From assembly GCA_964590575.1 (NCBI GenBank), contig CAZPWM010000008.1:1-56004 (forward strand): a stretch of DNA of 56,004 nucleotides, written 5' to 3'. Numbering within the stretch: the first letter of the stretch is position 1; each line of letters opens with the position of its first letter. Origin of the DNA: an uncultured archaeon (GTDB lineage Archaea > Asgardarchaeota > Thorarchaeia > Thorarchaeales > Thorarchaeaceae). Position numbers and translations under genes: made by a program. The notes beneath the pieces are model-generated. The model was given only the letters and a program-made list of their open reading frames with translations, did no database searches and was not told the DNA's origin. Below are positions 2,374 through 43,550 of this stretch, in pieces.

Positions 2374-3696
2374 TTGAGCGAGCACAAAAAGCTTTACGAT
2401 GAAGTATTTGGACTCATTGAGAAACATGATGACTGGATGAGTAAGACAATCAATCTCATTGCTTCTGAGAACGTTAGCTCTCCAGCTGTCAGATCTGCTA
2501 TCGTCTGCGATTTCCGAGACCGTTATGCGGAAGGATGGCCAGGGGAGAGGGTCTATGCAGGTTGTAAGTATATAGACGAGGTCGAGCTCATTACAATAGA
2601 CCTTGCAAAGAAGCTGTTCAAGGCCGAGTTTGCTGATGTGAGACCAATTTCAGGGGTTGTCGCAAATCTAGCCATGTACACAGCAGCCATGGAACCGATG
2701 GAGAGAATGATGGCCTTGTCCATTGCCCATGGTGGACATATCTCGCATGCAAGAAAGGACCTTGGCGGAACCGCGGGCCAAATACGAGGTCATAAGGTAC
2801 GTAACTGGGTATTCGATGACACAGAGTTCAACATCGATATCGATGCTAGCATGAAACTCATAAAAGACCTTCAGGAAAAAGGAGATGAGATCAAGTTTCT
2901 CCTCTTTGGAGGGAGTGTGTTTCCATTCCCACACCCGGTCAAGGAGTTCCGCGAGATAGCAGATGAGTATGGAATGACTATTGGTTATGACTCGGCACAT
3001 GTTTCGGGGCTTATCGCGGCTGGATTCTTCCAAGACCCTCTGCGAGAAGGTGCTGACATGATGACTGCATCAACCCATAAGACGATGCCTGGTCCGCAGC
3101 ATGGAATCATATTAGCAAAGGAAGAGTTTGCTGAACGAATCAAGAGAGCATCATTCCCAGGCCTATTGAGCAACCACCACCTGCACAACGTAGCGGGTCT
3201 TGCTGTGGTCTTGGCTGAGATGACCGAGTTTGGTGTTGAATATAGCACACAGATAATGAAGAATGCAAAAGCTCTCGCTCAGGCCTTACACGAACGAGGG
3301 TGGAGTGTCATCGGTGAACACAAAGGATTCACCGAGTCTCATGTTGTCCTAGTGGATGTCACTGAAACCCCCATGAAAGATGGGGCTGCTGTCGAAGAGA
3401 ATCTTGAGGATGCAAACATCATAATCAACCGAAATCTCCTACCTTGGGACAAGAAGAGAGGTCGTGACTATAAGACTCCGGGCGGTATCCGTCTTGGTAC
3501 AAGCGAACTGACCAGACTGGGTATGAAGGAGTCTGAGATGGATGCTGTTGCAGAGTTCCTTCATCGTGTCGTGATGAAGGGTGAGGATGTCAAGAAGATT
3601 GCAGCAGAAGTAGCTGAGTTCAGAAAGGAATACCAGAAAGTCCACTACGCTTTCGACACAGACACACCGGCATATGCTCATCTGAGATTCAAATAG
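2374..3696 (+). CDS. glyA: Serine hydroxymethyltransferase
   Basis: 'INLIASEN', 'RYAEG', 'GGHISH', PLP-lysine motif 'STHKTMPGPQ', 'GIRLGT'. Confidence 0.97.
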   Translation: MSEHKKLYDEVFGLIEKHDDWMSKTINLIASENVSSPAVRSAIVCDFRDRYAEGWPGERVYAGCKYIDEVELITIDLAKKLFKAEFADVRPISGVVANLAMYTAAMEPMERMMALSIAHGGHISHARKDLGGTAGQIRGHKVRNWVFDDTEFNIDIDASMKLIKDLQEKGDEIKFLLFGGSVFPFPHPVKEFREIADEYGMTIGYDSAHVSGLIAAGFFQDPLREGADMMTASTHKTMPGPQHGIILAKEEFAERIKRASFPGLLSNHHLHNVAGLAVVLAEMTEFGVEYSTQIMKNAKALAQALHERGWSVIGEHKGFTESHVVLVDVTETPMKDGAAVEENLEDANIIINRNLLPWDKKRGRDYKTPGGIRLGTSELTRLGMKESEMDAVAEFLHRVVMKGEDVKKIAAEVAEFRKEYQKVHYAFDTDTPAYAHLRFK

Positions 3697-3735
3697 GATC
3701 CGACAGTTAATCAGACCCTCTCTGGGGGATTTCTA

Positions 3736-4032
3736 ATGAAGATCGAAGAAGCACAAGAAATGATGCGAAAGATTTACCTTGAGAAAGACCGAGCTCGGGG
3801 TGTTGAGGGAACTCTGAAGAGAGCTTTTGATGAACTTGGAGAGTTGAGAGAGGCAATCGAGAACAATGACTCAACTCTGGCCATTGCCGATGAGGTGGCA
3901 GATGTCTTTGCATGGCTCTGTTCTCTAGCGAATTTGTTGGAAATCGATGTTTCTGAAGCGTTCTACAAGAAATATCCTGATGCCTGCTCGAAATGCAAGA
4001 AAAGCCCTTGTGATTGTGATAGGCCAAGATAG
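3736..4032 (+). CDS. MazG-like nucleotide pyrophosphohydrolase with C-terminal Cys cluster
   Basis: 'DELGEL...DEVADVFAWLCSLAN' and 'KY...CSKCKKSPCDC'. Confidence 0.9.
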   Translation: MKIEEAQEMMRKIYLEKDRARGVEGTLKRAFDELGELREAIENNDSTLAIADEVADVFAWLCSLANLLEIDVSEAFYKKYPDACSKCKKSPCDCDRPR

Positions 4033-4075: not shown

Positions 4076-4253
4076 AGTTGTAGTTGAAACTTCACTATCT
4101 CTGGATATCTCTGCAATTGTTCCCCAACTAGGCTCTTTATTGTGTACTGCTCCAAAAGTTCCATGGACACGATTGTACAGAATGTTGCGCTATTCATCTT
4201 GTATTATAAATAATGAATGCAATCTGAATTGAATCTAATTGGTGGTAGGATTC

Positions 4254-5027
4254 ATGCAGAATGAAACTAATTTGGAACTGGCGAAAACACTTCTTAAGAA
4301 TCCTGCATTTCCTCGAACAGCAAAATACGATCCTGAATGGATGGTTGGATTGGATCTGGGCTGCCCAACTTTTTGGCTGCTTGAACGATTATGCGAAGGA
4401 ATGAAATTTGAACCAGATATGCGCGTTCTGGACCTGGGCTGTGGGAAGGCTGGTGGATCAATATTCTTAGCGAAAGAGTTTGATGTTCAGGTTTGGGCTG
4501 TAGACCTAGGAGTAAGTCAAAGTGAGAATTGGGAACGCATTAGAGAACTGGGTCTGGAGAGTCAAGTTTTCCCCCTTCGAGCTGATGCGCGAGAGATGCC
4601 ATTCCCAAGGGAGTTCTTTGACGCTATTGTTTGTGTAAATTCTCTCTTCTTCTTTGCAACTGATGAAATCTATCTGCGGCATCATCTAATCCCAAGAGTC
4701 AAAACCGGCGGCCAAATAGGAAGTGTAGTGCCGGGATTCTACAAGGATTTTGATGGAGAATTGCCCAAGAGTCTGCCAGAGCATCTGAAACAATATTGGG
4801 CTTCATGTATGCTTTATACGTGGCACTCTGCAGAATGGTGGCGACAGCAATGGCTGAAGACCGAATCGGTCGAGGTCGAACTAACAGATGACTTCCCCGC
4901 CAACGAGGGATATCAGACCTACCTTGACTGGGAGAGAATAATAGGATATCCAGAGAAGATAGCGGAAGACGATAAGGGTAGGAATATCACATTCTCACGC
5001 TTGGTTGTTCGCCGACTCCTGACCTAA
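4254..5027 (+). CDS. Class I SAM-dependent methyltransferase
   Basis: Motif I 'VLDLGCGKAG', 'VWAVDL', 'FDAIVC'. Start taken at ATG 4254. Confidence 0.9.
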   Translation: MQNETNLELAKTLLKNPAFPRTAKYDPEWMVGLDLGCPTFWLLERLCEGMKFEPDMRVLDLGCGKAGGSIFLAKEFDVQVWAVDLGVSQSENWERIRELGLESQVFPLRADAREMPFPREFFDAIVCVNSLFFFATDEIYLRHHLIPRVKTGGQIGSVVPGFYKDFDGELPKSLPEHLKQYWASCMLYTWHSAEWWRQQWLKTESVEVELTDDFPANEGYQTYLDWERIIGYPEKIAEDDKGRNITFSRLVVRRLLT

Positions 5028-5034
5028 AGCTGGA

Positions 5035-5089
5035 TCAAAGATAGGAGTTTCAGCTTCTTCTAGCTTAGATACGTCATTCCTATCTTTGA
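5035..5089. repeat. 12-bp perfect inverted repeat between convergent genes
   Basis: TCAAAGATAGGA (5035-5046) and TCCTATCTTTGA (5078-5089). Confidence 0.7.
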
Positions 5090-5178
5090 GTTCACGAGTC
5101 GGCGAAGTGGAAGTGACACAGCCTGTACAGAATGACATTGTGATGCGGCATTCAACGCATCCCTCTGCCTCCTCTCCA

Positions 5179-5619
5179 TCACACACCCTTTTTGCTCAGA
5201 GCCTCTTCTAATGTACGTTGAAGACGCCGCCGCTCAGATCTATAATAGAACGGGCTCCATATCGTAATAGCCCAAATAAGGACGTCAAAGATACCAAAGA
5301 CAGATGTCCCGATTATTGTTTCCAGGTCCTCTGATAAATCAAGAGGAAGCGAAACTCCCAGAACGATAGCAACCACGCTAATGACCCCAATAATTATGAA
5401 ACCAATGCAATAGATAATGCCTTCAATCGCATATACTGGAGGACCTCGATCTGGCTTCAGAGTGATCTCTACACCCGCCTCTTCAGCCATTTTAATAGTC
5501 CTCTTCCTAGCTCCATCCACCGCAAAAGCTATAATCAAACCAGCAACGAACATTACAAACAAACCAATGAAGAAGAGTAGTCCCAACACTCTCGCCAAGT
5601 CCAATATTGTCTGCATCAT
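5179..5619 (-). CDS. Hypothetical membrane protein (about 3 TM helices)
   Basis: 146-aa ORF with three long hydrophobic segments. Confidence 0.7.
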   Translation of the reverse strand: MMQTILDLARVLGLLFFIGLFVMFVAGLIIAFAVDGARKRTIKMAEEAGVEITLKPDRGPPVYAIEGIIYCIGFIIIGVISVVAIVLGVSLPLDLSEDLETIIGTSVFGIFDVLIWAITIWSPFYYRSERRRLQRTLEEALSKKGV

Positions 5620-5724
5620 ATTCCTGATTGCACCCCATGATCATATGCTTCAGATGTTGATTCAATAATTATTCATCTGCTTAAATCATCATCGAAACGA
5701 TGACTCTCGAGCTTGGAAGCTACT

Positions 5725-5853
5725 TGGCTTTGTTCTCTGGCCAATCTATTAGAGATTGATGTTTCTGATGCATTCTACAAGAAGTATACTGATGTATGTT
5801 CGAAATGTAAGAAGAGCCCGTGTGTCTGCCCTGAGTCACCAGATATGAAGTAG
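5725..5853 (+). pseudogene. Diverged remnant copy of the mazG-like gene 3' end
   Basis: Translates WLCSLANLLEIDVSDAFYKKYTDVCSKCKKSPCVCPESPDMK*. It is 84/105 nt identical to 3913-4017 and has no start codon or 5' part. Confidence 0.9.
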
Positions 5854-6208
5854 GTTTGGACATATGAAATCGCATTTCGTACGGAATATTGGTAAAAAGG
5901 ATGGTTCTCGTTGCACAAATGGACTCTAGTAATCACAAAAAAGGGCCCATAACTCCGTAAATAGGAAAATTTCATCTAAAATAACCAATAATCCGACCGC
6001 TCCCGTTTAGGACCTAGTTTCAAGGCATACAAAGGACGTCACTCAGTATTCGTGTCTGTGCAAAGGGCTTTGGATATCTAATTCTATACAATTCATACAT
6101 CCAACAAACCGGTTCCTGTCGACGAATGTGAATCGGTGGGAGCGTAAAAGGCACTGGGGTAACACAAGTGCAGTCGATTACGAAATCCATTAGCGGAGGG
6201 ATGGGACA

Positions 6209-7591
6209 ATGACTGATGATGGGAATTCAGGATTTGGTATACTAAGACTAACTAAGTTTCTTATTGTGCTCCTTGTGACCTTTGTGCCTGTATCATGCAT
6301 CACATGGCTACTCTCTTTGGTCCCTTTTGGCTCAGCCACAATGAAAGGGCAAGCATTGATTCTCTCTGGTATCTGCTTCTTTGCTGGATCATGTGCACTG
6401 ATTTTCTCAAAGCCCTCCAAAGAGAAGGGACTTCTTTGGTTGAGCGGTTTTGTTGTCGCAGTTGGTGCAATAATTATCGCAGGTGTTCAAGCTCTCTATG
6501 CATTGGTTATCGAGTTCCCGCTCCAGAGCATCGTAATCATTGGACTTCCTCTCACACTGCTGATGGTATGGACTCTTCAGAAAGAAGCAGCAGTTGAAGA
6601 ACTTCATCCTGTGCAACAAGACACACTGGGAATCTCACTCTCGAGAGTGGTCATCAAGAAGGAGATTGTAATAGGGGCTGTTGAGCTCACAGAGTTTCCA
6701 GAGTCGCATCTTCTGGATATGGAAGCAAGTGAACAACAGAATCAACCGTTCTACAAGATTCTCCGAGTGATGATGCTAGCGAACTATCCATTGGCTCTTC
6801 GATACCAACGAATCAAACGCAGAGTGCGTGTCTTCTATCTGACTTGGGCGAAAACCGAATCGCAGCTTAAGGAGAATCTCGATACTCTTGAGGACTCAAT
6901 TAAGGGAACTCTCACCGGTTTCAAACGAAAGAGGCATGCCCGGTTTCACGGACCCACAATCAGTCCCTTGGCATCTGTAGCTACCTCATATCTACTAGGA
7001 GAACCACTCTCAATTGAGGATCCAAAACAGGACAAGGATGCCATCAATGTCGTGGCTGAAGTTCTGTTAGGAATGGAGGATGGCATCATCCAGATCTCTG
7101 CCATCCCTCGAAGGTCTAGTGACCGTGAGCTGAAGTCTCTAGAGAAGGAGTACCAGTCCGAAACAGAGAGGAGTCAGCTCACAGTCTCCACTCCGCAATC
7201 AACGCTGTTTTCGGGGGAGGTACAGAAGTCGACCACCAGAGTAAATGAGCGAGCCGTCAGGAACGCTGACTCTTTGAAGCTACAGATAGCCCGCATGAGC
7301 AACAGCCATCTTTGCGAGGTTGAGGTTTCTGCAACATGTTGGGACAGGGACCCTGAGATAGCGAAACAAAACTCCAAAAAACTGCTCGGGATGTTGAGAG
7401 GTTCATTAGTCCCTGCAGACTCGACACAACAGCAGACCATTGAGACTAGACTAAAACCAAACGAGGCTACCCGAGTCATAGAGGGAGAGACTATAGGAAA
7501 GACCACACTCCTCTCATTAGGAGAGGCGAGTGTCTACTTCTCGCTCGAAATGACCTCGGAGTCCCAATCGCTGACCACGCCTCATTCATAA
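6209..7591 (+). CDS. N-terminal, membrane-anchored part (about 4 TM) of a frameshifted HerA/VirB4-like ATPase
   Basis: Four hydrophobic segments in residues 16-122. The downstream ATPase frame is already open from 7450, overlapping this ORF; the frameshift is near 7540-7547. Confidence 0.7.
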   Translation: MTDDGNSGFGILRLTKFLIVLLVTFVPVSCITWLLSLVPFGSATMKGQALILSGICFFAGSCALIFSKPSKEKGLLWLSGFVVAVGAIIIAGVQALYALVIEFPLQSIVIIGLPLTLLMVWTLQKEAAVEELHPVQQDTLGISLSRVVIKKEIVIGAVELTEFPESHLLDMEASEQQNQPFYKILRVMMLANYPLALRYQRIKRRVRVFYLTWAKTESQLKENLDTLEDSIKGTLTGFKRKRHARFHGPTISPLASVATSYLLGEPLSIEDPKQDKDAINVVAEVLLGMEDGIIQISAIPRRSSDRELKSLEKEYQSETERSQLTVSTPQSTLFSGEVQKSTTRVNERAVRNADSLKLQIARMSNSHLCEVEVSATCWDRDPEIAKQNSKKLLGMLRGSLVPADSTQQQTIETRLKPNEATRVIEGETIGKTTLLSLGEASVYFSLEMTSESQSLTTPHS

Positions 7592-7737
7592 CTAATCCAG
7601 CTGACCTACGGGCCAACCAAGAGTCAGGGGACACTCCTAAGAAGAGTGAGGGCGTTCTCCTTGGTCAAAAACTGGATGACTCGGGGAACCCCATTAGCGA
7701 GTTCAGAATCCCACTCATTGATCTTGCCTCCCACTCA

Positions 7738-9714
7738 GTGGCTGGTGGTGACACAGGGACAGGAAAGACTGTGACTCAGTCAAACATCGCTCTCGAACTC
7801 GATAGACTGCACACTCCGTTCCTGGTTATCGCTTCATCCAAGCATGAGGACCAACTTAGGCTCATCAGAAAGATCAATGGAGTCCGTGTCTTCACTCCAG
7901 GTGATGAGACCACTACGCCAGTTCGTTTCTCCTTCAGTTATTTCTACGAGGGTATGCATGTCAACTCCGTAATAAACGACACAAAGGCGATGTTCGTCGC
8001 CACTATGCCCTCGCAGGGAATCATCAAGGAATACATGGAGAAGGTCATTGAACTCACTTTTCTGAGGTTAGGCTGGGACCGTGAGACCAACACACCTGGT
8101 CTTCCCATCCTGTTCTCGGACTTCCTAGAAACCCTCCCCCTCATCAGGGACGAGATACAGTACAGCACTCGAGGGAATGAGGATGTCTGGGGTGCTCTGT
8201 GGGGCCGGTACGGGACACTCTATCCCAGTGTCCTCAGCTCCCTGTTTGACACGATCTCTGGGATGACCATTGAGGAGCTGGTGTCAAAGCCCACCATCAT
8301 CATACTTGACAGGCTCTCACTGGAGGAACAGATGTTCTTCGTCTACTGGCTGGTGACAAGGCTAGCACGCTACTTCGAGGCCAAGAAGAAGACAGACGCT
8401 CATGACCAGAGGGGGCTGAAGTATGAGGTCTTCATGGAGGAGGCCCAGCGGTTCTTCTCTGGAGGGACAGGGGTCAAGGTGGATGAGGAGCATGGAGTAC
8501 GGTTCGCTGCTGTTGACGCTATCACTACTATCATGAAAGAGTCAAGGAGCGCAGGGCTCGGGTTCTGGCTAAATGCTCCGAATCTATCAGAGCTCACAAA
8601 CAACGCCTGCAACATGGCCCTGAACATCATGATGCACAGGAAAGGGGCGAAGAACGACCGCAAACAGATTGGGGACCAGATGAACTGCACGGATGACCAG
8701 ATCCGGTTGATAGGGTCCCTCCCAGTCGGCGAGGCGGTGGTCCGTACTGCTAGTATCGGCAAACCAGTACGTGTGAGGATCAATAATCCAGTTGAACAGT
8801 ACCCTGAACTTGCTCCTGGTTCTCTGGTCACTGACAAGGTGGTCAAGGAGTTCATGGAACCTGTCTATGAACAGCACCCTGAGTTCAAGACGAAGTCCGG
8901 TTATTCGGTCGAGGTGAAGAAGGATGAACAGAGTCTTTCGGTAGCCTCATTGAGGATCGATGTCACAAAGATGCACAGACTCTACTCGATATTAGACAAG
9001 CCCTCTGTCAAAGGTGCGCTCAAGGGTATGGAGATGGCTGCACAAAGTGGGAATACTCTTCTCGGAGCACTGGTCCTGCGGAACTTTGTGTCAATCGTGG
9101 AACCGAACGAGTCATACTTTGCCTTCTATTGTCATCATCTATTGTGGTTTCTCTCTGAGACTGAAACACCACTCTCTGAAGAGAATCTTGACAAGATCAC
9201 TACAGAGCTCGCAAATTTCGTTCCCCTCAATGAACTGGCACAGGTCAATCTTGGTCACATTCACGAACGTATCAGACTCACTGTGGAGAGAGGACTGGTC
9301 TCTTACAAAGAGGATAAGGCAGCACTGAGGACTGACCTGAAGGATGCTGTTGCTAGGGCAATTGAAGAGATGAAAGAGATACAAGACAAGGCTGCTGAGC
9401 GTAGACTCTCTGACAATGAATACAGGCTTAGCAGGCTTATTCCTGAGATCGTCAGGAACGAGAAGTTCACTAGCAGACACATCAAGCGGTTCAACAAGGC
9501 CCTGGATGGCGATTTTGAACCAATTGTACGGATGATTACTGTGTTTGCAAAGAAGATCGCAGGTCCTGAGGATGACCTCTGCCATGTCGCCACCATACTA
9601 CTGCATCATGCACGGTCTGAACTTGGTAATTCCGACAATGACTCAGTCTGGAAGACTATCCCGGATGAGGTGCATGCAAGCATACACGACTCGGGGTCAG
9701 AAGTTGCCGTATGA
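7738..9714 (+). CDS. C-terminal HerA/FtsK/VirB4-family (DUF87-like) ATPase part; true frame begins upstream at the frameshift
   Basis: Walker A GDTGTGKT, Walker B 'FMEEAQRF', Arg-finger-like 'KESRSAG', 'LPVGEAVV'. The upstream in-frame 'GVLLGQ...LASHSVAGG' is the usual pre-Walker-A strand. Confidence 0.85.
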   Translation: MAGGDTGTGKTVTQSNIALELDRLHTPFLVIASSKHEDQLRLIRKINGVRVFTPGDETTTPVRFSFSYFYEGMHVNSVINDTKAMFVATMPSQGIIKEYMEKVIELTFLRLGWDRETNTPGLPILFSDFLETLPLIRDEIQYSTRGNEDVWGALWGRYGTLYPSVLSSLFDTISGMTIEELVSKPTIIILDRLSLEEQMFFVYWLVTRLARYFEAKKKTDAHDQRGLKYEVFMEEAQRFFSGGTGVKVDEEHGVRFAAVDAITTIMKESRSAGLGFWLNAPNLSELTNNACNMALNIMMHRKGAKNDRKQIGDQMNCTDDQIRLIGSLPVGEAVVRTASIGKPVRVRINNPVEQYPELAPGSLVTDKVVKEFMEPVYEQHPEFKTKSGYSVEVKKDEQSLSVASLRIDVTKMHRLYSILDKPSVKGALKGMEMAAQSGNTLLGALVLRNFVSIVEPNESYFAFYCHHLLWFLSETETPLSEENLDKITTELANFVPLNELAQVNLGHIHERIRLTVERGLVSYKEDKAALRTDLKDAVARAIEEMKEIQDKAAERRLSDNEYRLSRLIPEIVRNEKFTSRHIKRFNKALDGDFEPIVRMITVFAKKIAGPEDDLCHVATILLHHARSELGNSDNDSVWKTIPDEVHASIHDSGSEVAV

Positions 9715-12700
9715 GAACTCAGATGATGCAGAACGGTACTCAGACCATGAGGAGCGAGAGAGGACAGAAGACCCGGAGCGAGAGGAGTCCTCTGAGGACT
9801 TGGAGAAAGAAGCTCAGGAAGCAGTTGATGATATAGAACGTCGCAGGGCTGCAGACAATGTAGCCAATGAGGCTGCTGATGAGCTTGATGAGGTGGAGTC
9901 CAGAGACCCTGAGGATGTTGAGAAGAATGAGTTTGACAAGGAACAGTCAATGGAGGATGACATAGGTCATGACATTGATGAGGCTCGTGACGACCTGCAC
10001 GATAGGTTCGTCAACGACATGGAGCGACAGCTTGATGGGGCTTCAACCAAAGACGTAGAGGGAGATGAGACCAATTCAGAAGGGTCATCCTCAGAGATGA
10101 CCGAGTCAAATGAGTCCTATCATGACGCAGGGGATGGGATGGCTTATGCCGTGCAAACAGAGAACGGTTCCGGAGAGGTTGAGGAGGAAACACAGGAGGT
10201 CTCAGAACCAGAGTCACAAGAACCCGTTGAACAACAGACTGAGTCAGAGGAAATTGAAGAGCCGGGTACTGAGAGGGGCATCAATCGAATAACCCGTCAG
10301 GAATCCGAGGAGGGTGAAACAACCACCTCATCTGAGACTCAAGAGACCCACGAGCCTAGGACATCAAGTTCCAGTCCTGAGGTGTCAGAGACCGAGGTGG
10401 AAGATACACAAGAGATCAATGAGTGGCATGCAGAGTCTGAACCTGCTGCATCCACTAAGGAACAGGATCAGCACGAGTACGAGACTAATGACCTCTCGGA
10501 ACCGGATGAGGAGAGTCAGCGTGAGGGAGAACCTGTAGAGGCCGATGAACCAGATGCAGGGTCTGAAGACCTTGAACAAGAGATTGAGGACATTCTCGAG
10601 TCCCTTGAAAAACCAGAGGGAGAACCATTAGCACACAAAGAACCTGAGACTGAAGTAGAGTCTGTTGAGCACGCTGAGGAACTGACTGTTGACCATGAAA
10701 CACCTGAGCAGGAGCTGTCTGAGGCACAAGAGGTTGAGTCTGAAAAGGCAGAAACAAGCGAGGTCCCCGCAGAAGATGAGCCACTCCCCGAAACCCTTGA
10801 AGAGTTTGTGGAGCGGGTCAAGGAGATTCTGGATGAGTGGACGGAGGAGGATGACAGGTATGACTATGTTCAGGACCCTCTGACCGGCGAGATACAGCGT
10901 GTCCCGAAGATCCTTGCAGAGTATGAGTCAGATGAACAGAAGCAGCGTCGGAAGATCAGGAGCCTCTTTGCAGAACTCTCAGAGGAGGAGCGTGAGCGGT
11001 TCAAGGAGCTTGTCCGGGAGAGTGCTGAGAGCGAGGATGAGCGCTCTGCAGAGGCTGTTGAACGGGCTTGGAATCAGGTGGTAGCGAAAGCTGAGCAGGA
11101 GCGAGAGGAGATGCTTGAGGAAGTCAGGCAGGTGCTTGAAGACCCGGAGGTGATGCAACTCCTTGAGGGAATTACAGAGGGGGAGAATAAGAGCCACACG
11201 AGTGTAGAGTATGCTGAGGATGATGAGATGGATGAGGAGGACTCCCTTGAGCAGTTCCTGATGCGAGAGGAGTCCAGACTGCGGGTCTGGATACCCAAGG
11301 TCAACGGGGAGCTGGTCGAGTCCATCGAGCAGTTGGAGGAGCTGGTCAGGGAGAGGTATCCCGGTCTCTTGAGGCACAAGGACTATGCTAAGTACATCCG
11401 ACAGGCTGCACTCCATCTCGAACTGGTGGAGCGTTTTCAGAACGAGGAGTTGAAACGTGGTGACATCGCGAGCATCTCCAAGGAGACCGGGGAGTCTCCC
11501 ACCACCGTCAAGCGGTGGCTCATCGAGGGTGCTAAGCCCCGGATTTGCCATTACCTCACACGGAATCCACTGGATGACCGAGAGGAGCGGGTGGCCAAGA
11601 TCTTGTCCTCGTTGAATGGCGTAACCGACATGGAGACCCTCGAGCGGCGACTCAGAACACTTTTTCTCTATGGTGCGTTGGAGCGTTCAAAGAGCCATGC
11701 CAGGGATCTCGACCGGGCGATGCTGTTCTTTGATTTTCTGGACGAGTACGCCAAAGGTGGGATCCTCAAGAGTATCGCAAAACGACTTGGGATTGGGAAG
11801 AGCACGGTCTGGGAGTGGTTCAATGGTTCGCAACTGCCCTCCTATGTTCGGATGGCTGCTACAATCCCGAGCGAATCACCTGGTCCAGGGAAGAAGTGGT
11901 TGCCTCTACGACTCAACTCGCGCACCAATCTCCCCGAGCGGTTCATTCAGGTCCCGGAGGTGGTCAATTCGGAGGAGGACCTGCTCTCAGTCCTGCGACA
12001 TCTCCAGAGTCTTAGCACCCCCGAGATAAAAGATTTCGAGAAGAAGTACGGGAGAGAGCCCACACATCTGGCGTTCATGTATCTTCTTGGACTCATTGTG
12101 TCTGATGGAGGATTTGATTCTGACTCTGACCAGTCAGCTAGGGTTGTTTTGTACGCGTCTAAGAAGTATCGTTGGAGCCTCAGGTTGGGCAGGGCATTCT
12201 CAAACGCAATGGGTAGGATAGGCATGAATGTGGAACGTAGGGCTGATGAAACCAAAATCAAGAATGGAAAGACCATCGTATGTAAAGTATGGGCGAGTCA
12301 GGCCAGTCCTCTTCTTCGCTGGGTGAAGGAGGTGTTGCTTGGATTGGAACGGTTTCATTCGAAGAAAGAGAGCCCCATTGATGCTGAATGGATTCTGAAA
12401 ATGCCTCGTGACTATCGGGTTGCATTCTTGCAGGGTCTTGCAGATGGGGATGGGTACGCTTCCATCAAATCATTCTGTTTGGGAATTGCATCTAAGCCCA
12501 ATCGGGATTTCATCAGCAAACTTCTCTCGACCCTTGATATACACTCAAACTCGAAAAAGACAAAAGTAGTAATAAATAGACAAGAGGACATAATCAAGGC
12601 AAGTAGTCTTCCCCTTTTCAGACATGCCACAAGTCGTAAGAGGAATCATGATGAACTTTGCAAGATAATCGGCTTACTGGATAGGAGTCATGGCAAAGTT

Positions 12701-12856
12701 CCTGAGAGAGATCGCAAGATCATAATGAAACTTCACAATCAAGGTTTCTCTTTTGGTGAGATAACCGAGAAACTCTGGTTTGATTATGGGATTGCTCGTT
12801 CTACGAGCAGCGTCGAAAGAATTGTCAGTCGCCATAATAGAAACCAAAGTCCTTGA
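9704..12856 (+). CDS. Large protein: Glu/Asp-rich low-complexity N-half, two HTH-containing repeats, double-motif LAGLIDADG endonuclease-like domain, C-terminal HTH
   Basis: TTG 9704 with GGGGT RBS, overlapping the ATPase stop. Motifs 'YLLGLIVSDGG' (~12080) and 'FLQGLADGDG' (~12425); HTHs 'ISKETGESPTTVKRW' and 'IAKRLGIGKSTVWEW'. Confidence 0.85.
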   Translation: MPYENSDDAERYSDHEERERTEDPEREESSEDLEKEAQEAVDDIERRRAADNVANEAADELDEVESRDPEDVEKNEFDKEQSMEDDIGHDIDEARDDLHDRFVNDMERQLDGASTKDVEGDETNSEGSSSEMTESNESYHDAGDGMAYAVQTENGSGEVEEETQEVSEPESQEPVEQQTESEEIEEPGTERGINRITRQESEEGETTTSSETQETHEPRTSSSSPEVSETEVEDTQEINEWHAESEPAASTKEQDQHEYETNDLSEPDEESQREGEPVEADEPDAGSEDLEQEIEDILESLEKPEGEPLAHKEPETEVESVEHAEELTVDHETPEQELSEAQEVESEKAETSEVPAEDEPLPETLEEFVERVKEILDEWTEEDDRYDYVQDPLTGEIQRVPKILAEYESDEQKQRRKIRSLFAELSEEERERFKELVRESAESEDERSAEAVERAWNQVVAKAEQEREEMLEEVRQVLEDPEVMQLLEGITEGENKSHTSVEYAEDDEMDEEDSLEQFLMREESRLRVWIPKVNGELVESIEQLEELVRERYPGLLRHKDYAKYIRQAALHLELVERFQNEELKRGDIASISKETGESPTTVKRWLIEGAKPRICHYLTRNPLDDREERVAKILSSLNGVTDMETLERRLRTLFLYGALERSKSHARDLDRAMLFFDFLDEYAKGGILKSIAKRLGIGKSTVWEWFNGSQLPSYVRMAATIPSESPGPGKKWLPLRLNSRTNLPERFIQVPEVVNSEEDLLSVLRHLQSLSTPEIKDFEKKYGREPTHLAFMYLLGLIVSDGGFDSDSDQSARVVLYASKKYRWSLRLGRAFSNAMGRIGMNVERRADETKIKNGKTIVCKVWASQASPLLRWVKEVLLGLERFHSKKESPIDAEWILKMPRDYRVAFLQGLADGDGYASIKSFCLGIASKPNRDFISKLLSTLDIHSNSKKTKVVINRQEDIIKASSLPLFRHATSRKRNHDELCKIIGLLDRSHGKVPERDRKIIMKLHNQGFSFGEITEKLWFDYGIARSTSSVERIVSRHNRNQSP

Positions 12857-12869
12857 ACCATTGGAAGAC

Positions 12870-12892
12870 TTAATAAACCTCACAGGGTGAGG
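12870..12892 (+). promoter_or_regulatory. Putative sec61beta promoter with adjacent palindrome
   Basis: TTAATAAA followed by CCTCAC-AGG-GTGAGG. Confidence 0.45.
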
Positions 12893-12921
12893 ACAGCCAT
12901 CCTTTACGTAGGTGATACTTG

Positions 12922-13116
12922 ATGCCGAAGACAGCGAAGAAGAGAAAAGGAAAGCGTGGGGAAGGCCCGATGCCTTCAGGTGGCGCGGGCTTAATTCGCT
13001 TCTTCGAAGACGAGACGCCAGGCATCAAGGTAGGGCCGACGATGGTAGTGATTCTGGCGGGCATACTTCTGATAGCCACCGTGATTGCGCACATCGCTGC
13101 TTTGGCCGCTGCATAA
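12922..13116 (+). CDS. secG: Preprotein translocase subunit Sec61beta
   Basis: 'GAGLIRFFEDETPGIKVGP' followed by a C-terminal TM; GGTGA RBS. Confidence 0.93.
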   Translation: MPKTAKKRKGKRGEGPMPSGGAGLIRFFEDETPGIKVGPTMVVILAGILLIATVIAHIAALAAA

Positions 13117-43473: not shown

Positions 43474-43550
43474 GGGTCGGTGGTCTAGCTTGGTATGATT
43501 CTTGGTTCGGATCCAAGGGATCGCGAGTTCAAATCTCGTCCGGCCCACCA
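43474..43550 (+). tRNA. tRNA-Pro (anticodon CGG), CCA encoded, no intron
   Basis: Acceptor stem GGGTCGG/CCGGCCC, anticodon arm CTTGG-TTCGGAT-CCAAG, T loop GTTCAAATC, 3' ACCA. Confidence 0.96.

What the first reader, a model, noticed from the sequence alone, without database searches (positions are those of the whole stretch)
6209..12856. Two-gene island: membrane-anchored HerA/VirB4-type ATPase coupled to a giant acidic HTH-LAGLIDADG protein (candidate undescribed export/effector or DNA-transfer system)
Seen: a GC-richer block between housekeeping genes. Gene 1 has about 4 N-terminal TMs, a linker, a HerA/FtsK/VirB4 ATPase core and a helical tail. Its stop overlaps the start of gene 2 (TTG 9704 with RBS). 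Gene 2 has about 500 aa of very Glu/Asp-rich low-complexity sequence followed by DNA-binding and nuclease modules. Known: membrane-tethered FtsK/HerA/VirB4 ATPases pump DNA or protein (conjugative coupling proteins, CedB, type VII EssC), and LAGLIDADG domains normally occur in inteins, introns or WhiA. Inference: the ATPase may export or handle the acidic protein as a nuclease effector, or the pair may be a minimal integrase-free selfish module that cuts and moves DNA. I know of no named system with this pairing.
Basis: partly seen in the sequence, partly recalled or inferred. Interest (0 to 1): 0.85.

Follow-up and report, generated by a model that had tools for sequence, protein, structure and literature searches.

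The report
Membrane HerA ATPase with acidic LAGLIDADG partner
A Thorarchaeota genome carries a compositionally foreign two-gene module, a membrane-anchored HerA-type motor (broken here by a 4-base deletion) followed by a very acidic DNA-binding LAGLIDADG nuclease, and the same pairing recurs across Asgard archaea without having been described.

Summary
Gene 1 is not one ORF. A 4-bp deletion (CTCG x2 at 7540-7547, x3 in a related strain) splits it into 6209-7591 and the open frame 7450-9714. Independent contigs of two runs carry the deletion.

Intact relatives are about 1170 aa: 4 TM helices, an alpha/beta N-domain, a HerA-clade ATPase and a helical tail. Gene 2 (9704-12856) has a 500-aa N-part of net charge -133 that contains conserved blocks. 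It then has HTHs and a double LAGLIDADG core with invariant acidic residues.

In 27 of 28 evaluable loci from Asgard genomes, such an ATPase abuts a large partner, most with an acidic N-terminus. Partner C-parts vary: LAGLIDADG, NUMOD3+HNH, HTH arrays, or no Pfam hit.

The island (5853-12856) has 50.4% GC against 43.5% for the genome and sits in a hypervariable MazG|sec61beta-L44e locus. The LAGLIDADG half occurs at that same locus in relatives, mostly without the ATPase.

Best reading (0.42): a HerA-ATPase plus DNA-targeting-nuclease conflict module, decaying in this strain. Rivals are effector export, homing selfishness and DNA transfer. Six literature searches found no description. It is a new variant of a known kind.

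The parts
5724..5852 (+). Relic second copy of the MazG gene's 3' end (last ~42 codons, ending TAG). It marks the left edge of the island.
   Evidence: blastn of relatives' MazG 3' ends matches 5723-5860 at 75-84%, as well as the intact gene at 3000-4017. Sequence read.
5853..6208 (+). Non-coding leader of the island, upstream of gene 1.
   Evidence: No homology to empty-site relatives. Contigs of other strains diverge at 6039-6099 (table 7).
6209..7591 (+). Gene 1, N-part (ORF A, 460 aa): about 4 TM helices plus the alpha/beta N-domain. It ends in an out-of-frame tail after 7540.
   Evidence: It is 62% identical to the own-genome paralog on C67. Fold of the paralog.
7540..7547 (+). CTCG x2, the site of the 4-bp deletion that shifts the frame. 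The intact form has CTCG x3.
   Evidence: In one search table 4, the run X5 contig has 'CTCG put in behind 7539' (depth 7.51 of 7.51). Contigs of X1 and X2 span the site without it (records 3 and 11).
7450..9714 (+). Gene 1, C-part (open frame; homologous from 7540): HerA-clade ATPase core (Walker A 7747-7770, VFMEEA from 8428) and a ~290-aa helical tail.
   Evidence: Fold Z 28-30 to DndH-C, VirB4-CTD and HerA. The PDB profile search hits HerA-type chains.
9704..11200 (+). Gene 2 N-module: acidic (net charge -133) with conserved blocks. It co-varies with the ATPase subfamily.
11447..11824 (+). Two HTH motifs of gene 2 (residues 582-606 and 678-707).
   Evidence: Pfam HTH_Tnp_ISL3 at 26.4 bits and HTH_23 at 24.5 bits, both just under cut-off. 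Helical bundles in the model.
12083..12112 (+). LAGLIDADG motif 1 (LLGLIVSDGG; D801).
   Evidence: D and G invariant in 15 of 15 aligned sequences (A2).
12428..12454 (+). LAGLIDADG motif 2 (LQGLADGDG; D914, D916).
   Evidence: Q, G, L, D, G, D, G invariant in 15 of 15. Pfam LAGLIDADG_3 at residues 903-966.
12674..12775 (+). C-terminal HTH (sigma-70 region-4-like), giving a WhiA-like order of domains.
   Evidence: Pfam Sigma70_r4_2 at 23.5 bits, under cut-off. Top fold match is full-length WhiA 3hyi.
9704..12856 (+). Gene 2 as a whole (1050 aa; TTG start, TGA stop at 12854-12856).
12857..12921 (+). Right edge. Homology to empty-site relatives resumes at the first base after gene 2's stop. An A/T-rich TTAATAAA box lies ahead of sec61beta (12922).
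   Evidence: Loose ends at 12860 in runs X1 and X2 (table 7).

Best explanation
This is one copy, now decaying, of an Asgard-wide two-gene conflict module. The module pairs a HerA-clade ring ATPase with a DNA-targeting effector.

Proposed working, by analogy with HerA-NurA, SIR2-HerA and DUF4297-HerA:
1. The ATPase forms a ring. In this subfamily four N-terminal TM helices tether it to the membrane.
2. The partner docks on the ring through the conserved helical blocks inside its acidic N-module.
3. The partner's HTH array and monomeric double-LAGLIDADG core find and cut DNA.
4. The ATPase supplies translocation or activation.
5. The poly-acidic stretch may act as an internal DNA mimic that keeps the DNA-binding half silent until the ATPase engages it.

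In this strain a 4-bp deletion has split the ATPase gene. The nuclease gene is intact and could be served in trans by the intact paralogous ATPase on contig C67.

Shown: the architecture, motif conservation, gene linkage, modular shuffling, atypical composition, the indel boundaries and the reality of the deletion.
Inferred: complex formation, DNA translocation, autoinhibition and a defence or conflict role.
For: ATPase placement:
- The A1 profile hits HerA or DUF87-type chains in the PDB, best E 7.7e-13, and no VirB4, TrwB or FtsK chain at E<=1.
- 12 of 19 family members match Pfam DUF87 at E<=1. So do 9 of 9 sampled distant relatives, above cut-off.
- Fold Z is 28-30 over ~340 residues.

Linkage:
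- 27 of 28 evaluable ATPase loci have a co-directional ORF of 563-1696 aa, or cut by a contig end. Of 31 loci examined, 3 were cut at the ATPase.
- The partner ORF is open from before the ATPase stop or starts within 25 nt of it. One locus is at +172, across masked bases.
- D+E in the first 300 residues is 0.15-0.36. The genome's 443 ORFs of >=500 aa have mean 0.128 and 95th percentile 0.176.
- The pairs span several genera and other Asgard families.

Modularity:
- The N-module goes with the ATPase subfamily, while C-parts are exchanged.
- Of 32 N-module homologs, 10 carry LAGLIDADG_3, 5 carry only HTH families and the rest have no Pfam entry.

Nuclease competence:
- Both LAGLIDADG acidic residues are invariant in 15 of 15 sequences.
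- The model has pLDDT 86.7 and matches I-DmoI, PI-SceI, E-DreI and WhiA.

Accessory, conflict-like behaviour:
- GC and tetranucleotide content are outliers.
- The locus is hypervariable.
- There are decay states: the frameshift here, an ATPase remnant in G004's hotspot, and two partner genes without an ATPase on own-genome contig C22.
- A Streptomyces plasmid has a DUF87 ATPase whose stop overlaps an annotated ADP-ribosyltransferase with an acidic N-end.
Against: - No experiment or structure shows that the two proteins bind.
- PADLOC gives only weak HerA and mad8 hits, best E 1.1e-7 for the window's ATPase part and 3.4e-11 for a relative. It gives nothing for gene 2.
- No modification or immunity gene lies in the island.
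- The nuclease types (LAGLIDADG, NUMOD3-HNH with HTH arrays) are those of site-specific homing enzymes, not typical defence effectors.
- The LAGLIDADG half survives at this locus in many relatives without the ATPase. It therefore has a life of its own.
- The 4-TM anchor, the ~300-aa N-domain and the ~290-aa tail have no counterpart in characterised HerA-effector systems.
- By fold alone, VirB4 (Z 28.8) and DndH-C (Z 30.1) are as close as HerA.
Confidence: 0.42

Rival explanations
1. Effector export. The membrane ATPase recognises the conserved acidic N-module as a leader and pushes the nuclease out of the cell or into a neighbour, in the manner of a polymorphic toxin system.
For: - About 4 TM helices on the ATPase.
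- A conserved N-module with exchangeable C-parts.
- Several partner genes per ATPase in one genome, two of them orphans on C22 that keep the ATPase-overlap codons.
- A Streptomyces analog with an ADP-ribosyltransferase and a small downstream ORF.
Against: - ATPases of four sister subfamilies (C10, L050, L072, L074) show no TM segment yet have the same kind of partner.
- No immunity-like gene: gene 2's stop is followed directly by the sec61beta promoter region.
- No other secretion component lies in the island.
- The C-parts are long-site DNA binders, not typical toxins.
- Profile searches place the ATPase with HerA, not with EssC, FtsK or VirD4.
Confidence: 0.15
2. Selfish homing element. The HTH-LAGLIDADG half is a free-standing homing endonuclease specific for the MazG|sec61beta intergenic site. 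It keeps itself, and whatever is fused or linked to it, in the population by cutting empty alleles. The ATPase and acidic module are cargo or a regulator.
For: - Homologs of the C-half lie in this same locus in 9 genus-g1 genomes including the window. They also do in 6 of 6 metagenome loci with enough flank, out of 12 loci returned.
- In G001 the gene is attached to a different ATPase subfamily and inverted, yet sits at the same locus.
- Three relatives have empty sites and seven have other cargo.
- The indel is clean, ending at the stop codon, with no integrase, transposase or flanking repeat.
- The catalytic residues are invariant.
Against: - Identity of the C-half follows species relatedness. 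It is 67-69% where eIF2alpha is 88-92% identical, and 43-46% where eIF2alpha is 74-80%. That fits vertical descent with losses.
- Short forms seem to keep vestiges of the N-module. This was judged by eye and points to decay rather than spread.
- In five genomes of other genera, the best homologs lie on different contigs from eIF2alpha.
- Homing needs neither an ATPase nor 500 acidic residues.
Confidence: 0.2
3. Minimal DNA-transfer or DNA-uptake motor. It would be a VirB4, T4CP or Ced-like membrane translocase whose partner selects and nicks the DNA to be moved.
For: - Fold Z of 28.8 to the VirB4 C-domain and about 22 to TrwB.
- Foldseek's top hits are full-length TrwK/VirB4 chains aligned over ~830-900 columns. 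VIA aligns 606 residues of model 134-887 to TrwK 1-804, at rmsd 16.7.
- A membrane anchor and a site-specific DNA-binding partner.
Against: - No VirB4, TrwB or FtsK chain at E<=1 in the profile search.
- No pilin, VirB6-like or other transfer gene in the island. Both flanks are housekeeping genes.
- TM-less variants exist.
- Only ATPase-core matches at ~25% identity in 41 of 72,556 plasmid records. None found in viral contigs with the patterns used.
Confidence: 0.1

Closest known systems
HerA-effector assemblies (HerA-NurA; SIR2-HerA/Nezha; DUF4297-HerA; TdpAB)
   Same: A HerA-clade ATPase core by profile and by fold. The adjacent gene encodes a nuclease-type effector.
   Different: This ATPase has a 4-TM anchor, a ~300-aa alpha/beta N-domain and a ~290-aa helical tail. 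Its partner is a 1050-aa protein with a 500-aa acidic module, HTHs and LAGLIDADG. PADLOC matches are only weak. The roles of these named systems are recalled, not tested here.
LAGLIDADG homing endonucleases (I-DmoI, PI-SceI, I-SceI)
   Same: Two LAGLIDADG motifs with conserved acidic residues, Pfam LAGLIDADG_3 above cut-off, and fold matches. The gene recurs at one intergenic locus with empty alleles in relatives.
   Different: It is free-standing, not in an intron or intein. It has extra HTH domains on both sides, is fused to a large acidic module and is translationally linked to an ATPase.
WhiA
   Same: The order of domains: double LAGLIDADG, then a C-terminal HTH. WhiA is the best Foldseek hit (3hyi, E 2.5e-6).
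   Different: WhiA has lost the catalytic acidic residues (recalled). Here they are invariant. No LAGLIDADG_WhiA or HTH_WhiA Pfam hit.
VirB4 / type IV coupling proteins / Ced-type ATPases
   Same: A membrane-associated FtsK-HerA-superfamily ATPase. Fold Z is 28.8 to the VirB4 C-domain. There is a weak NCBIfam CedD hit at E 8.6e-4 and 18 bits, against a cut-off of 600.
   Different: No sequence-profile match to VirB4, TrwB or FtsK chains. No other transfer genes nearby.
Polymorphic toxin systems
   Same: A conserved N-part with exchangeable C-terminal modules, plus orphan copies.
   Different: No adjacent immunity gene and no known secretion signal or system. The modules are site-specific DNA binders.

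Membership tests
FtsK-HerA superfamily, HerA/DUF87 clade | P-loop with Walker A and an hhhhEEA/DEA Walker B | tested here: met
   GDTGTGKT at 7747-7770 and VFMEEA from 8428. G, K, T and EE are invariant in the 19-sequence alignment.
FtsK-HerA superfamily, HerA/DUF87 clade | Match to Pfam DUF87 (HerA central domain) at the curated cut-off | tested here: inconclusive
   The window's own protein has no hit. 12 of 19 family members match at E<=1, best 2.1e-6. 9 of 9 sampled distant relatives match above 23.2 bits.
FtsK-HerA superfamily, HerA/DUF87 clade | Sequence-profile and fold likeness to solved HerA | tested here: met
   The profile hits HerA or DUF87-type chains (8yho 7.7e-13, 8wiv, 4d2i). 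VIA gives Z 28.1 to 4d2i with 342 residues aligned.
FtsK-HerA superfamily, HerA/DUF87 clade | N-terminal HAS-barrel and hexameric ring | not tested
Oligomeric state cannot be tested here.
VirB4 / T4SS ATPase | VirB4-type N-domain plus C-domain | tested here: inconclusive
   The C-domain scores Z 28.8 (4ag5). Full-length TrwK aligns over model 134-887, but at rmsd 16.7.
VirB4 / T4SS ATPase | Neighbouring T4SS or Ced genes (pilin, VirB6-like, VirB3) | tested here: not met
   The island holds only the two genes. Flanks are a MazG relic and sec61beta/L44e.
LAGLIDADG homing endonuclease | Two LAGLIDADG helices ending in an acidic residue; Pfam LAGLIDADG_3 | tested here: met
   LLGLIVSDG and LQGLADGDG are invariant in 15 of 15. 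Pfam gives 43.6 bits against 22.5. Fold matches.
LAGLIDADG homing endonuclease | Site-specific cleavage and homing | not testable with these tools
   Only indirect signs: the same locus in 9 genus-g1 genomes plus 6 metagenome loci, and empty sites in relatives.
LAGLIDADG homing endonuclease | Residence in an intron or intein | tested here: not met
   It is a free-standing ORF or domain of a larger protein.
WhiA | Degenerate LAGLIDADG without catalytic acids; WhiA-specific Pfam domains | tested here: not met
   The acidic residues are retained. No LAGLIDADG_WhiA or HTH_WhiA hit. Only the domain order and fold are alike.
Polymorphic toxin system | Constant N-part with variable C-terminal modules | tested here: met
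Polymorphic toxin system | Cognate immunity gene directly downstream | tested here: not met
   Homology to the sec61beta flank resumes at 12857, right after the stop.
Known anti-phage HerA systems (PADLOC models) | Match to a system's HerA and effector models | tested here: inconclusive
   For the window's ATPase part, HerA models give E 4.2e-7 to 3.4e-3 and mad8 gives 1.1e-7. Gene 2 has no hit.

The most novel reading that the evidence does not exclude
Asgard archaea carry a previously unrecognised, diversifying class of conflict modules. In these, a HerA-type DNA motor, often membrane-tethered, is coupled to exchangeable homing-endonuclease-like 'warheads'. The coupling is through a long poly-acidic, DNA-mimicking leader with embedded docking helices. 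The motor engages or threads this leader to switch on, position or export the nuclease. This would be a new way of controlling site-specific nucleases. It would also be a source of free-standing LAGLIDADG genes that stay behind when the motor decays.
Probability: 0.25. Interest if true: 0.8.

Novelty: new variant of a known kind. Interest (0 to 1): 0.62.

Why it matters
- HerA-plus-effector assemblies are an emerging theme in prokaryotic immunity and DNA repair. This family would add a membrane-tethered, LAGLIDADG/HNH-armed version that appears confined mainly to Asgard archaea, the closest prokaryotic relatives of eukaryotes, whose conflict systems are little known.
- The module shows how site-specific nuclease domains are shuffled onto a constant adaptor.
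- It may explain where some free-standing LAGLIDADG genes come from.
- The long-site nuclease domains may interest genome engineers.
- The locus also gives a clear population-level case of decay: a 4-bp slippage allele alongside an intact allele.

Tried and rejected
- **Programmed -1 frameshift in gene 1.** Rejected. Homologs are single ORFs. A related strain has the extra CTCG. I saw no slippery heptamer on reading the site, and ran no scan.
- **Assembly artefact.** Rejected. Independent contigs of runs X1 and X2 span the site with the deletion. X1 may be the source sample, and X2 is from the same habitat type.
- **Integrase, transposase, tRNA or flanking repeats as a mobility mechanism.**
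  - The only tRNA in the window is at 43474.
  - No direct or inverted repeat of >=10 nt is shared by the two edges.
  - No transposase or integrase appeared among the 10 hotspot ORFs scanned.
- **Complex prediction** of the ATPase tail (866-1166 of the C67 paralog) with the partner N-module (1-513). The verdict was 'no answer', score 0.00. This is neither support nor counter-evidence.
- **N-domain identity.** The atlas feature search gave unnamed Chloroflexota clusters at 0.93 and DUF8128 at 0.89, which are leads only. Pfam at E<=1 on 19 members gave no N-domain family.
- **C-module of the C10-type partners.**
  - No Pfam hit and no significant PDB hit.
  - hhalign against the LAGLIDADG alignment was not significant: probability 0.27, E 0.23.
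  - The atlas gave LAGLIDADG clusters at 0.90, a lead only.
- **Viral contigs.** No relative of either protein was found with the patterns used.
- **Plasmids.** Only ATPase-core matches at ~25% identity.
- **Joint 6895 to 11964**. The side is 24 letters, under 30, so it is treated as spurious.
- **Literature.** Six full-text searches returned no paper on a HerA-type ATPase paired with a LAGLIDADG or acidic partner in Asgard archaea. I saw listings and abstract starts only, plus passages of PMC10853773. Supplements were not consulted and may hold gene-neighbourhood tables.
Full report
**Organism and setting.** Source names attached to homologs identify a Candidatus Thorarchaeota genome. The window is contig C8 of a 3.40-Mb, 194-contig assembly, 91% complete.

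**The observation.**
- Intact relatives are single ORFs of 1162-1178 aa. One is a paralog in the same genome (C67:1367-4867). It is 62% identical over the N-part and 52% over the C-part.
- Alignment to the paralog places the break between EASVYFSL and ARNDLGV. There the window reads CTCGCTCG (7540-7547), and an intact frame needs one more CTCG.
- Laying public contigs on the region confirmed this. A ~95%-related strain in run X5 has 'CTCG put in behind 7539'. Contigs of runs X1 (possibly the source sample) and X2 span the site in the deleted form.
- The frameshift is therefore a real allele. It is neither an assembly error nor programmed recoding.
- Both halves are otherwise free of stops, so the lesion is recent.

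**Gene 1 product.**
- The AF2 model of the C67 paralog has mean pLDDT 77. It shows:
  - four long helices at 10-125, which are hydrophobic by Kyte-Doolittle analysis in both copies;
  - a disordered linker;
  - an alpha/beta domain at 154-445;
  - a P-loop domain at 484-865;
  - an all-helical tail at 877-1162.
- VIA-align gives Z 30.1 to the DndH C-domain, 28.8 to the VirB4 C-domain, 28.1 to Sulfolobus HerA, about 23-26 to anti-phage HerA proteins and about 22 to TrwB. Fold alone therefore does not choose a clade.
- Sequence does choose. The family profile hits HerA or DUF87-type chains in the PDB (best 7.7e-13) and no VirB4, TrwB or FtsK chain at E<=1.
- Pfam DUF87 is matched by 12 of 19 family members at E<=1 and by 9 of 9 sampled distant relatives above cut-off.
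- The window's own protein has no Pfam or NCBIfam hit at cut-off.
- The profile finds 5167 proteins at E<=1e-3 among 1.84 billion representatives. Among the 150 best listed, full-length matches that include the N-domain are a minority.

**Gene 2 product.**
- The start at TTG 9704 overlaps the ATPase stop (9712-9714). It is the codon used by gene calls of homologs.
- Residues 1-500 have 177 D+E against 44 K+R, a net charge of -133.
- This region is not featureless. Seven sequences share blocks at 36-65% identity:
  - the N-terminal PYE.SDD.ERYS;
  - DDL..DLDEVRDELH..VNDM;
  - ESYxDAGxGMxYA;
  - YDYVQDPLTGE...RRRLRxLFAELSEEERERFK.
- The C-half was modelled at pLDDT 86.7. It is a set of helical HTH bundles, a double LAGLIDADG core and a terminal HTH.
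- Foldseek's best matches are WhiA, I-DmoI, E-DreI, PI-SceI and PI-PfuI.
- Both motifs keep their acidic residues in all 15 aligned sequences, unlike WhiA (recalled).

**Linkage.**
- I examined 31 loci holding a family ATPase. They came from the genus, other genera of the family and other Asgard families.
- Three are cut by a contig end at the ATPase.
- Of the other 28, 27 have a co-directional large ORF abutting the ATPase stop. The exception, L052, was the weakest ATPase match.
- Twenty-five of the 27 partners have an N-terminal D+E fraction above the genome's 95th percentile for long ORFs.
- Partner C-parts differ:
  - LAGLIDADG_3 (window, C67, G005, L050, L065);
  - seven NUMOD3 repeats plus HNH (L045);
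  - HTH arrays only (L015, C22a, L070);
  - no Pfam hit.
- The Pfam-negative C10-type module has LAGLIDADG-like SDG and QDG motifs. An atlas feature search gave LAGLIDADG clusters at 0.90, but hhalign was not significant. This is a lead only.
- The N-module follows the ATPase subfamily, while the C-half follows something else:
  - The window's N-module is 36-41% identical to those of the C67, G005:C109 and G014:C49 partners, whose ATPases are the close relatives.
  - Its C-half is closest to genes at the same chromosomal locus in other genomes.
- In the database, 32 proteins share the N-module. Ten carry LAGLIDADG_3, five carry only HTH families and the rest carry none.
- The same genome also has two partner genes on C22 with this N-module and no ATPase. 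They still begin with the codons that overlap an ATPase 3' end elsewhere.
- This genome therefore has one intact subfamily-A ATPase (C67), one broken one (the window) and four partners.

**The membrane anchor is facultative.** Hydropathy finds N-terminal TM segments in the window/C67, L045, L042 and L073 ATPases. It finds none in the C10, L050, L072 and L074 ATPases, which start directly with the N-domain and still have partners. This weighs against a core function that requires secretion.

**The locus.**
- The island is compositionally foreign. GC is 0.504 against 0.435, and this includes the non-acidic parts (gene 1 0.496, C-half 0.503). Tetranucleotide distance is at the 99.8th percentile.
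- Against relatives with an empty site, homology ends on the left inside a relic second copy of the MazG 3' end (5724-5852). It resumes on the right at 12857, the first base after gene 2's stop.
- In the empty site of G018, 78 bp stand in place of about 7.0 kb.
- Contigs of other strains in the same samples diverge at 12860 and at 6039-6099.
- In the 19 genus genomes where the locus could be viewed:
  - 9 have a C-half homolog. In the window and G001 an ATPase is adjacent. G010, G008, G003 and G015 clearly lack one. G016, G005 and G023 are cut by contig ends.
  - 3 are empty (G018, G012, G024).
  - 7 hold unrelated cargo. One of these, G004, has a 98-residue remnant of the ATPase N-domain.
- Six of six metagenome loci with enough flank, of 12 returned, also have the gene in this locus. 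These include a true short form 71% identical to the window's C-half.
- Relative to that short form, the window has an extra 5.3 kb (5857-11181) holding the leader, the ATPase and the N-module.
- Short forms seem to keep vestiges of N-module blocks, such as RKRRNLFSKL and EVERAW. I judged this by eye and did not test it.
- C-half identity follows species relatedness. Long-term residence with repeated decay is therefore at least as likely as active homing.

**Reading.**
- The conserved, translationally coupled pairing of a HerA-clade motor with a DNA-targeting nuclease resembles the HerA-effector assemblies of DNA repair and anti-phage defence.
- Other features point to an accessory conflict module:
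  - the co-variation of adaptor and motor;
  - the exchangeable warheads;
  - several copies per genome;
  - patchy distribution;
  - foreign composition;
  - frequent decay.
- A Streptomyces plasmid shows the same grammar with an ADP-ribosyltransferase.
- I give this reading 0.42. Export gets 0.15, homing selfishness as the main function 0.20 and DNA transfer 0.10.
- These are not exclusive. The LAGLIDADG half may home while the full module does something else.

**Novelty.** Six full-text searches found no description of this pairing. I rate the module a new variant of a known kind.

Noticed in passing
window 5724-5852 (and 3736-4032): A second, partial copy of the MazG gene's 3' end lies 1.7 kb downstream of the intact MazG-like gene. 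It is closer to relatives' MazG (82-84% in four of the seven relatives compared) than the intact gene's own 3' end is (76-77% in the same four). The methyltransferase (4239-5027) and the 146-aa membrane protein (5179-5619, minus strand) sit between the two copies. They look like an earlier insertion or replacement in the same hotspot.
   Followed up: partly
window 12922-13116: A 64-codon ORF reads like archaeal Sec61beta (MPKTAKKRKGKRGEG...), too short for the ORF list. It is the first conserved gene right of the island. The name is my reading, not tested.
   Followed up: partly
own genome, contig C22: 11257-14076 (-) and 23752-26799 (-) (locus L075): Two 'orphan' partner genes with the same acidic N-module but no ATPase upstream. 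One has an HTH array, the other a Pfam-negative C-module like that of the C10 pair.
   Followed up: partly
L025 (G004:C9) 4670-4963: A 98-residue remnant of the ATPase N-domain (profile positions 350-447, E 1.5e-21) lies inside the same MazG|L44e hotspot of a relative that lacks the pair.
   Followed up: partly
L077 (Streptomyces clavuligerus plasmid NZ_CP065235.1) 4110-8367: A 952-aa DUF87-type ATP-binding protein has a stop that overlaps an annotated ADP-ribosyltransferase with an acidic, disordered-looking N-end. A small ORF follows, and a 598-aa TM protein precedes. This may be a bacterial counterpart of the ATPase-plus-acidic-effector arrangement.
   Followed up: partly
L042, L043, L044 (ATPases of 905-933 aa): In this subfamily, one or two small, very hydrophobic ORFs (206-287 aa) precede the ATPase. 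They may be a separate membrane subunit.
   Followed up: no
window 5031-5824 and 4613-4983, run X5: In the related strain of run X5, a contig joins 5824 back to 5031 with 34 other letters between. No contig covers 4613-4983. The left part of the hotspot therefore seems to be arranged differently there.
   Followed up: no
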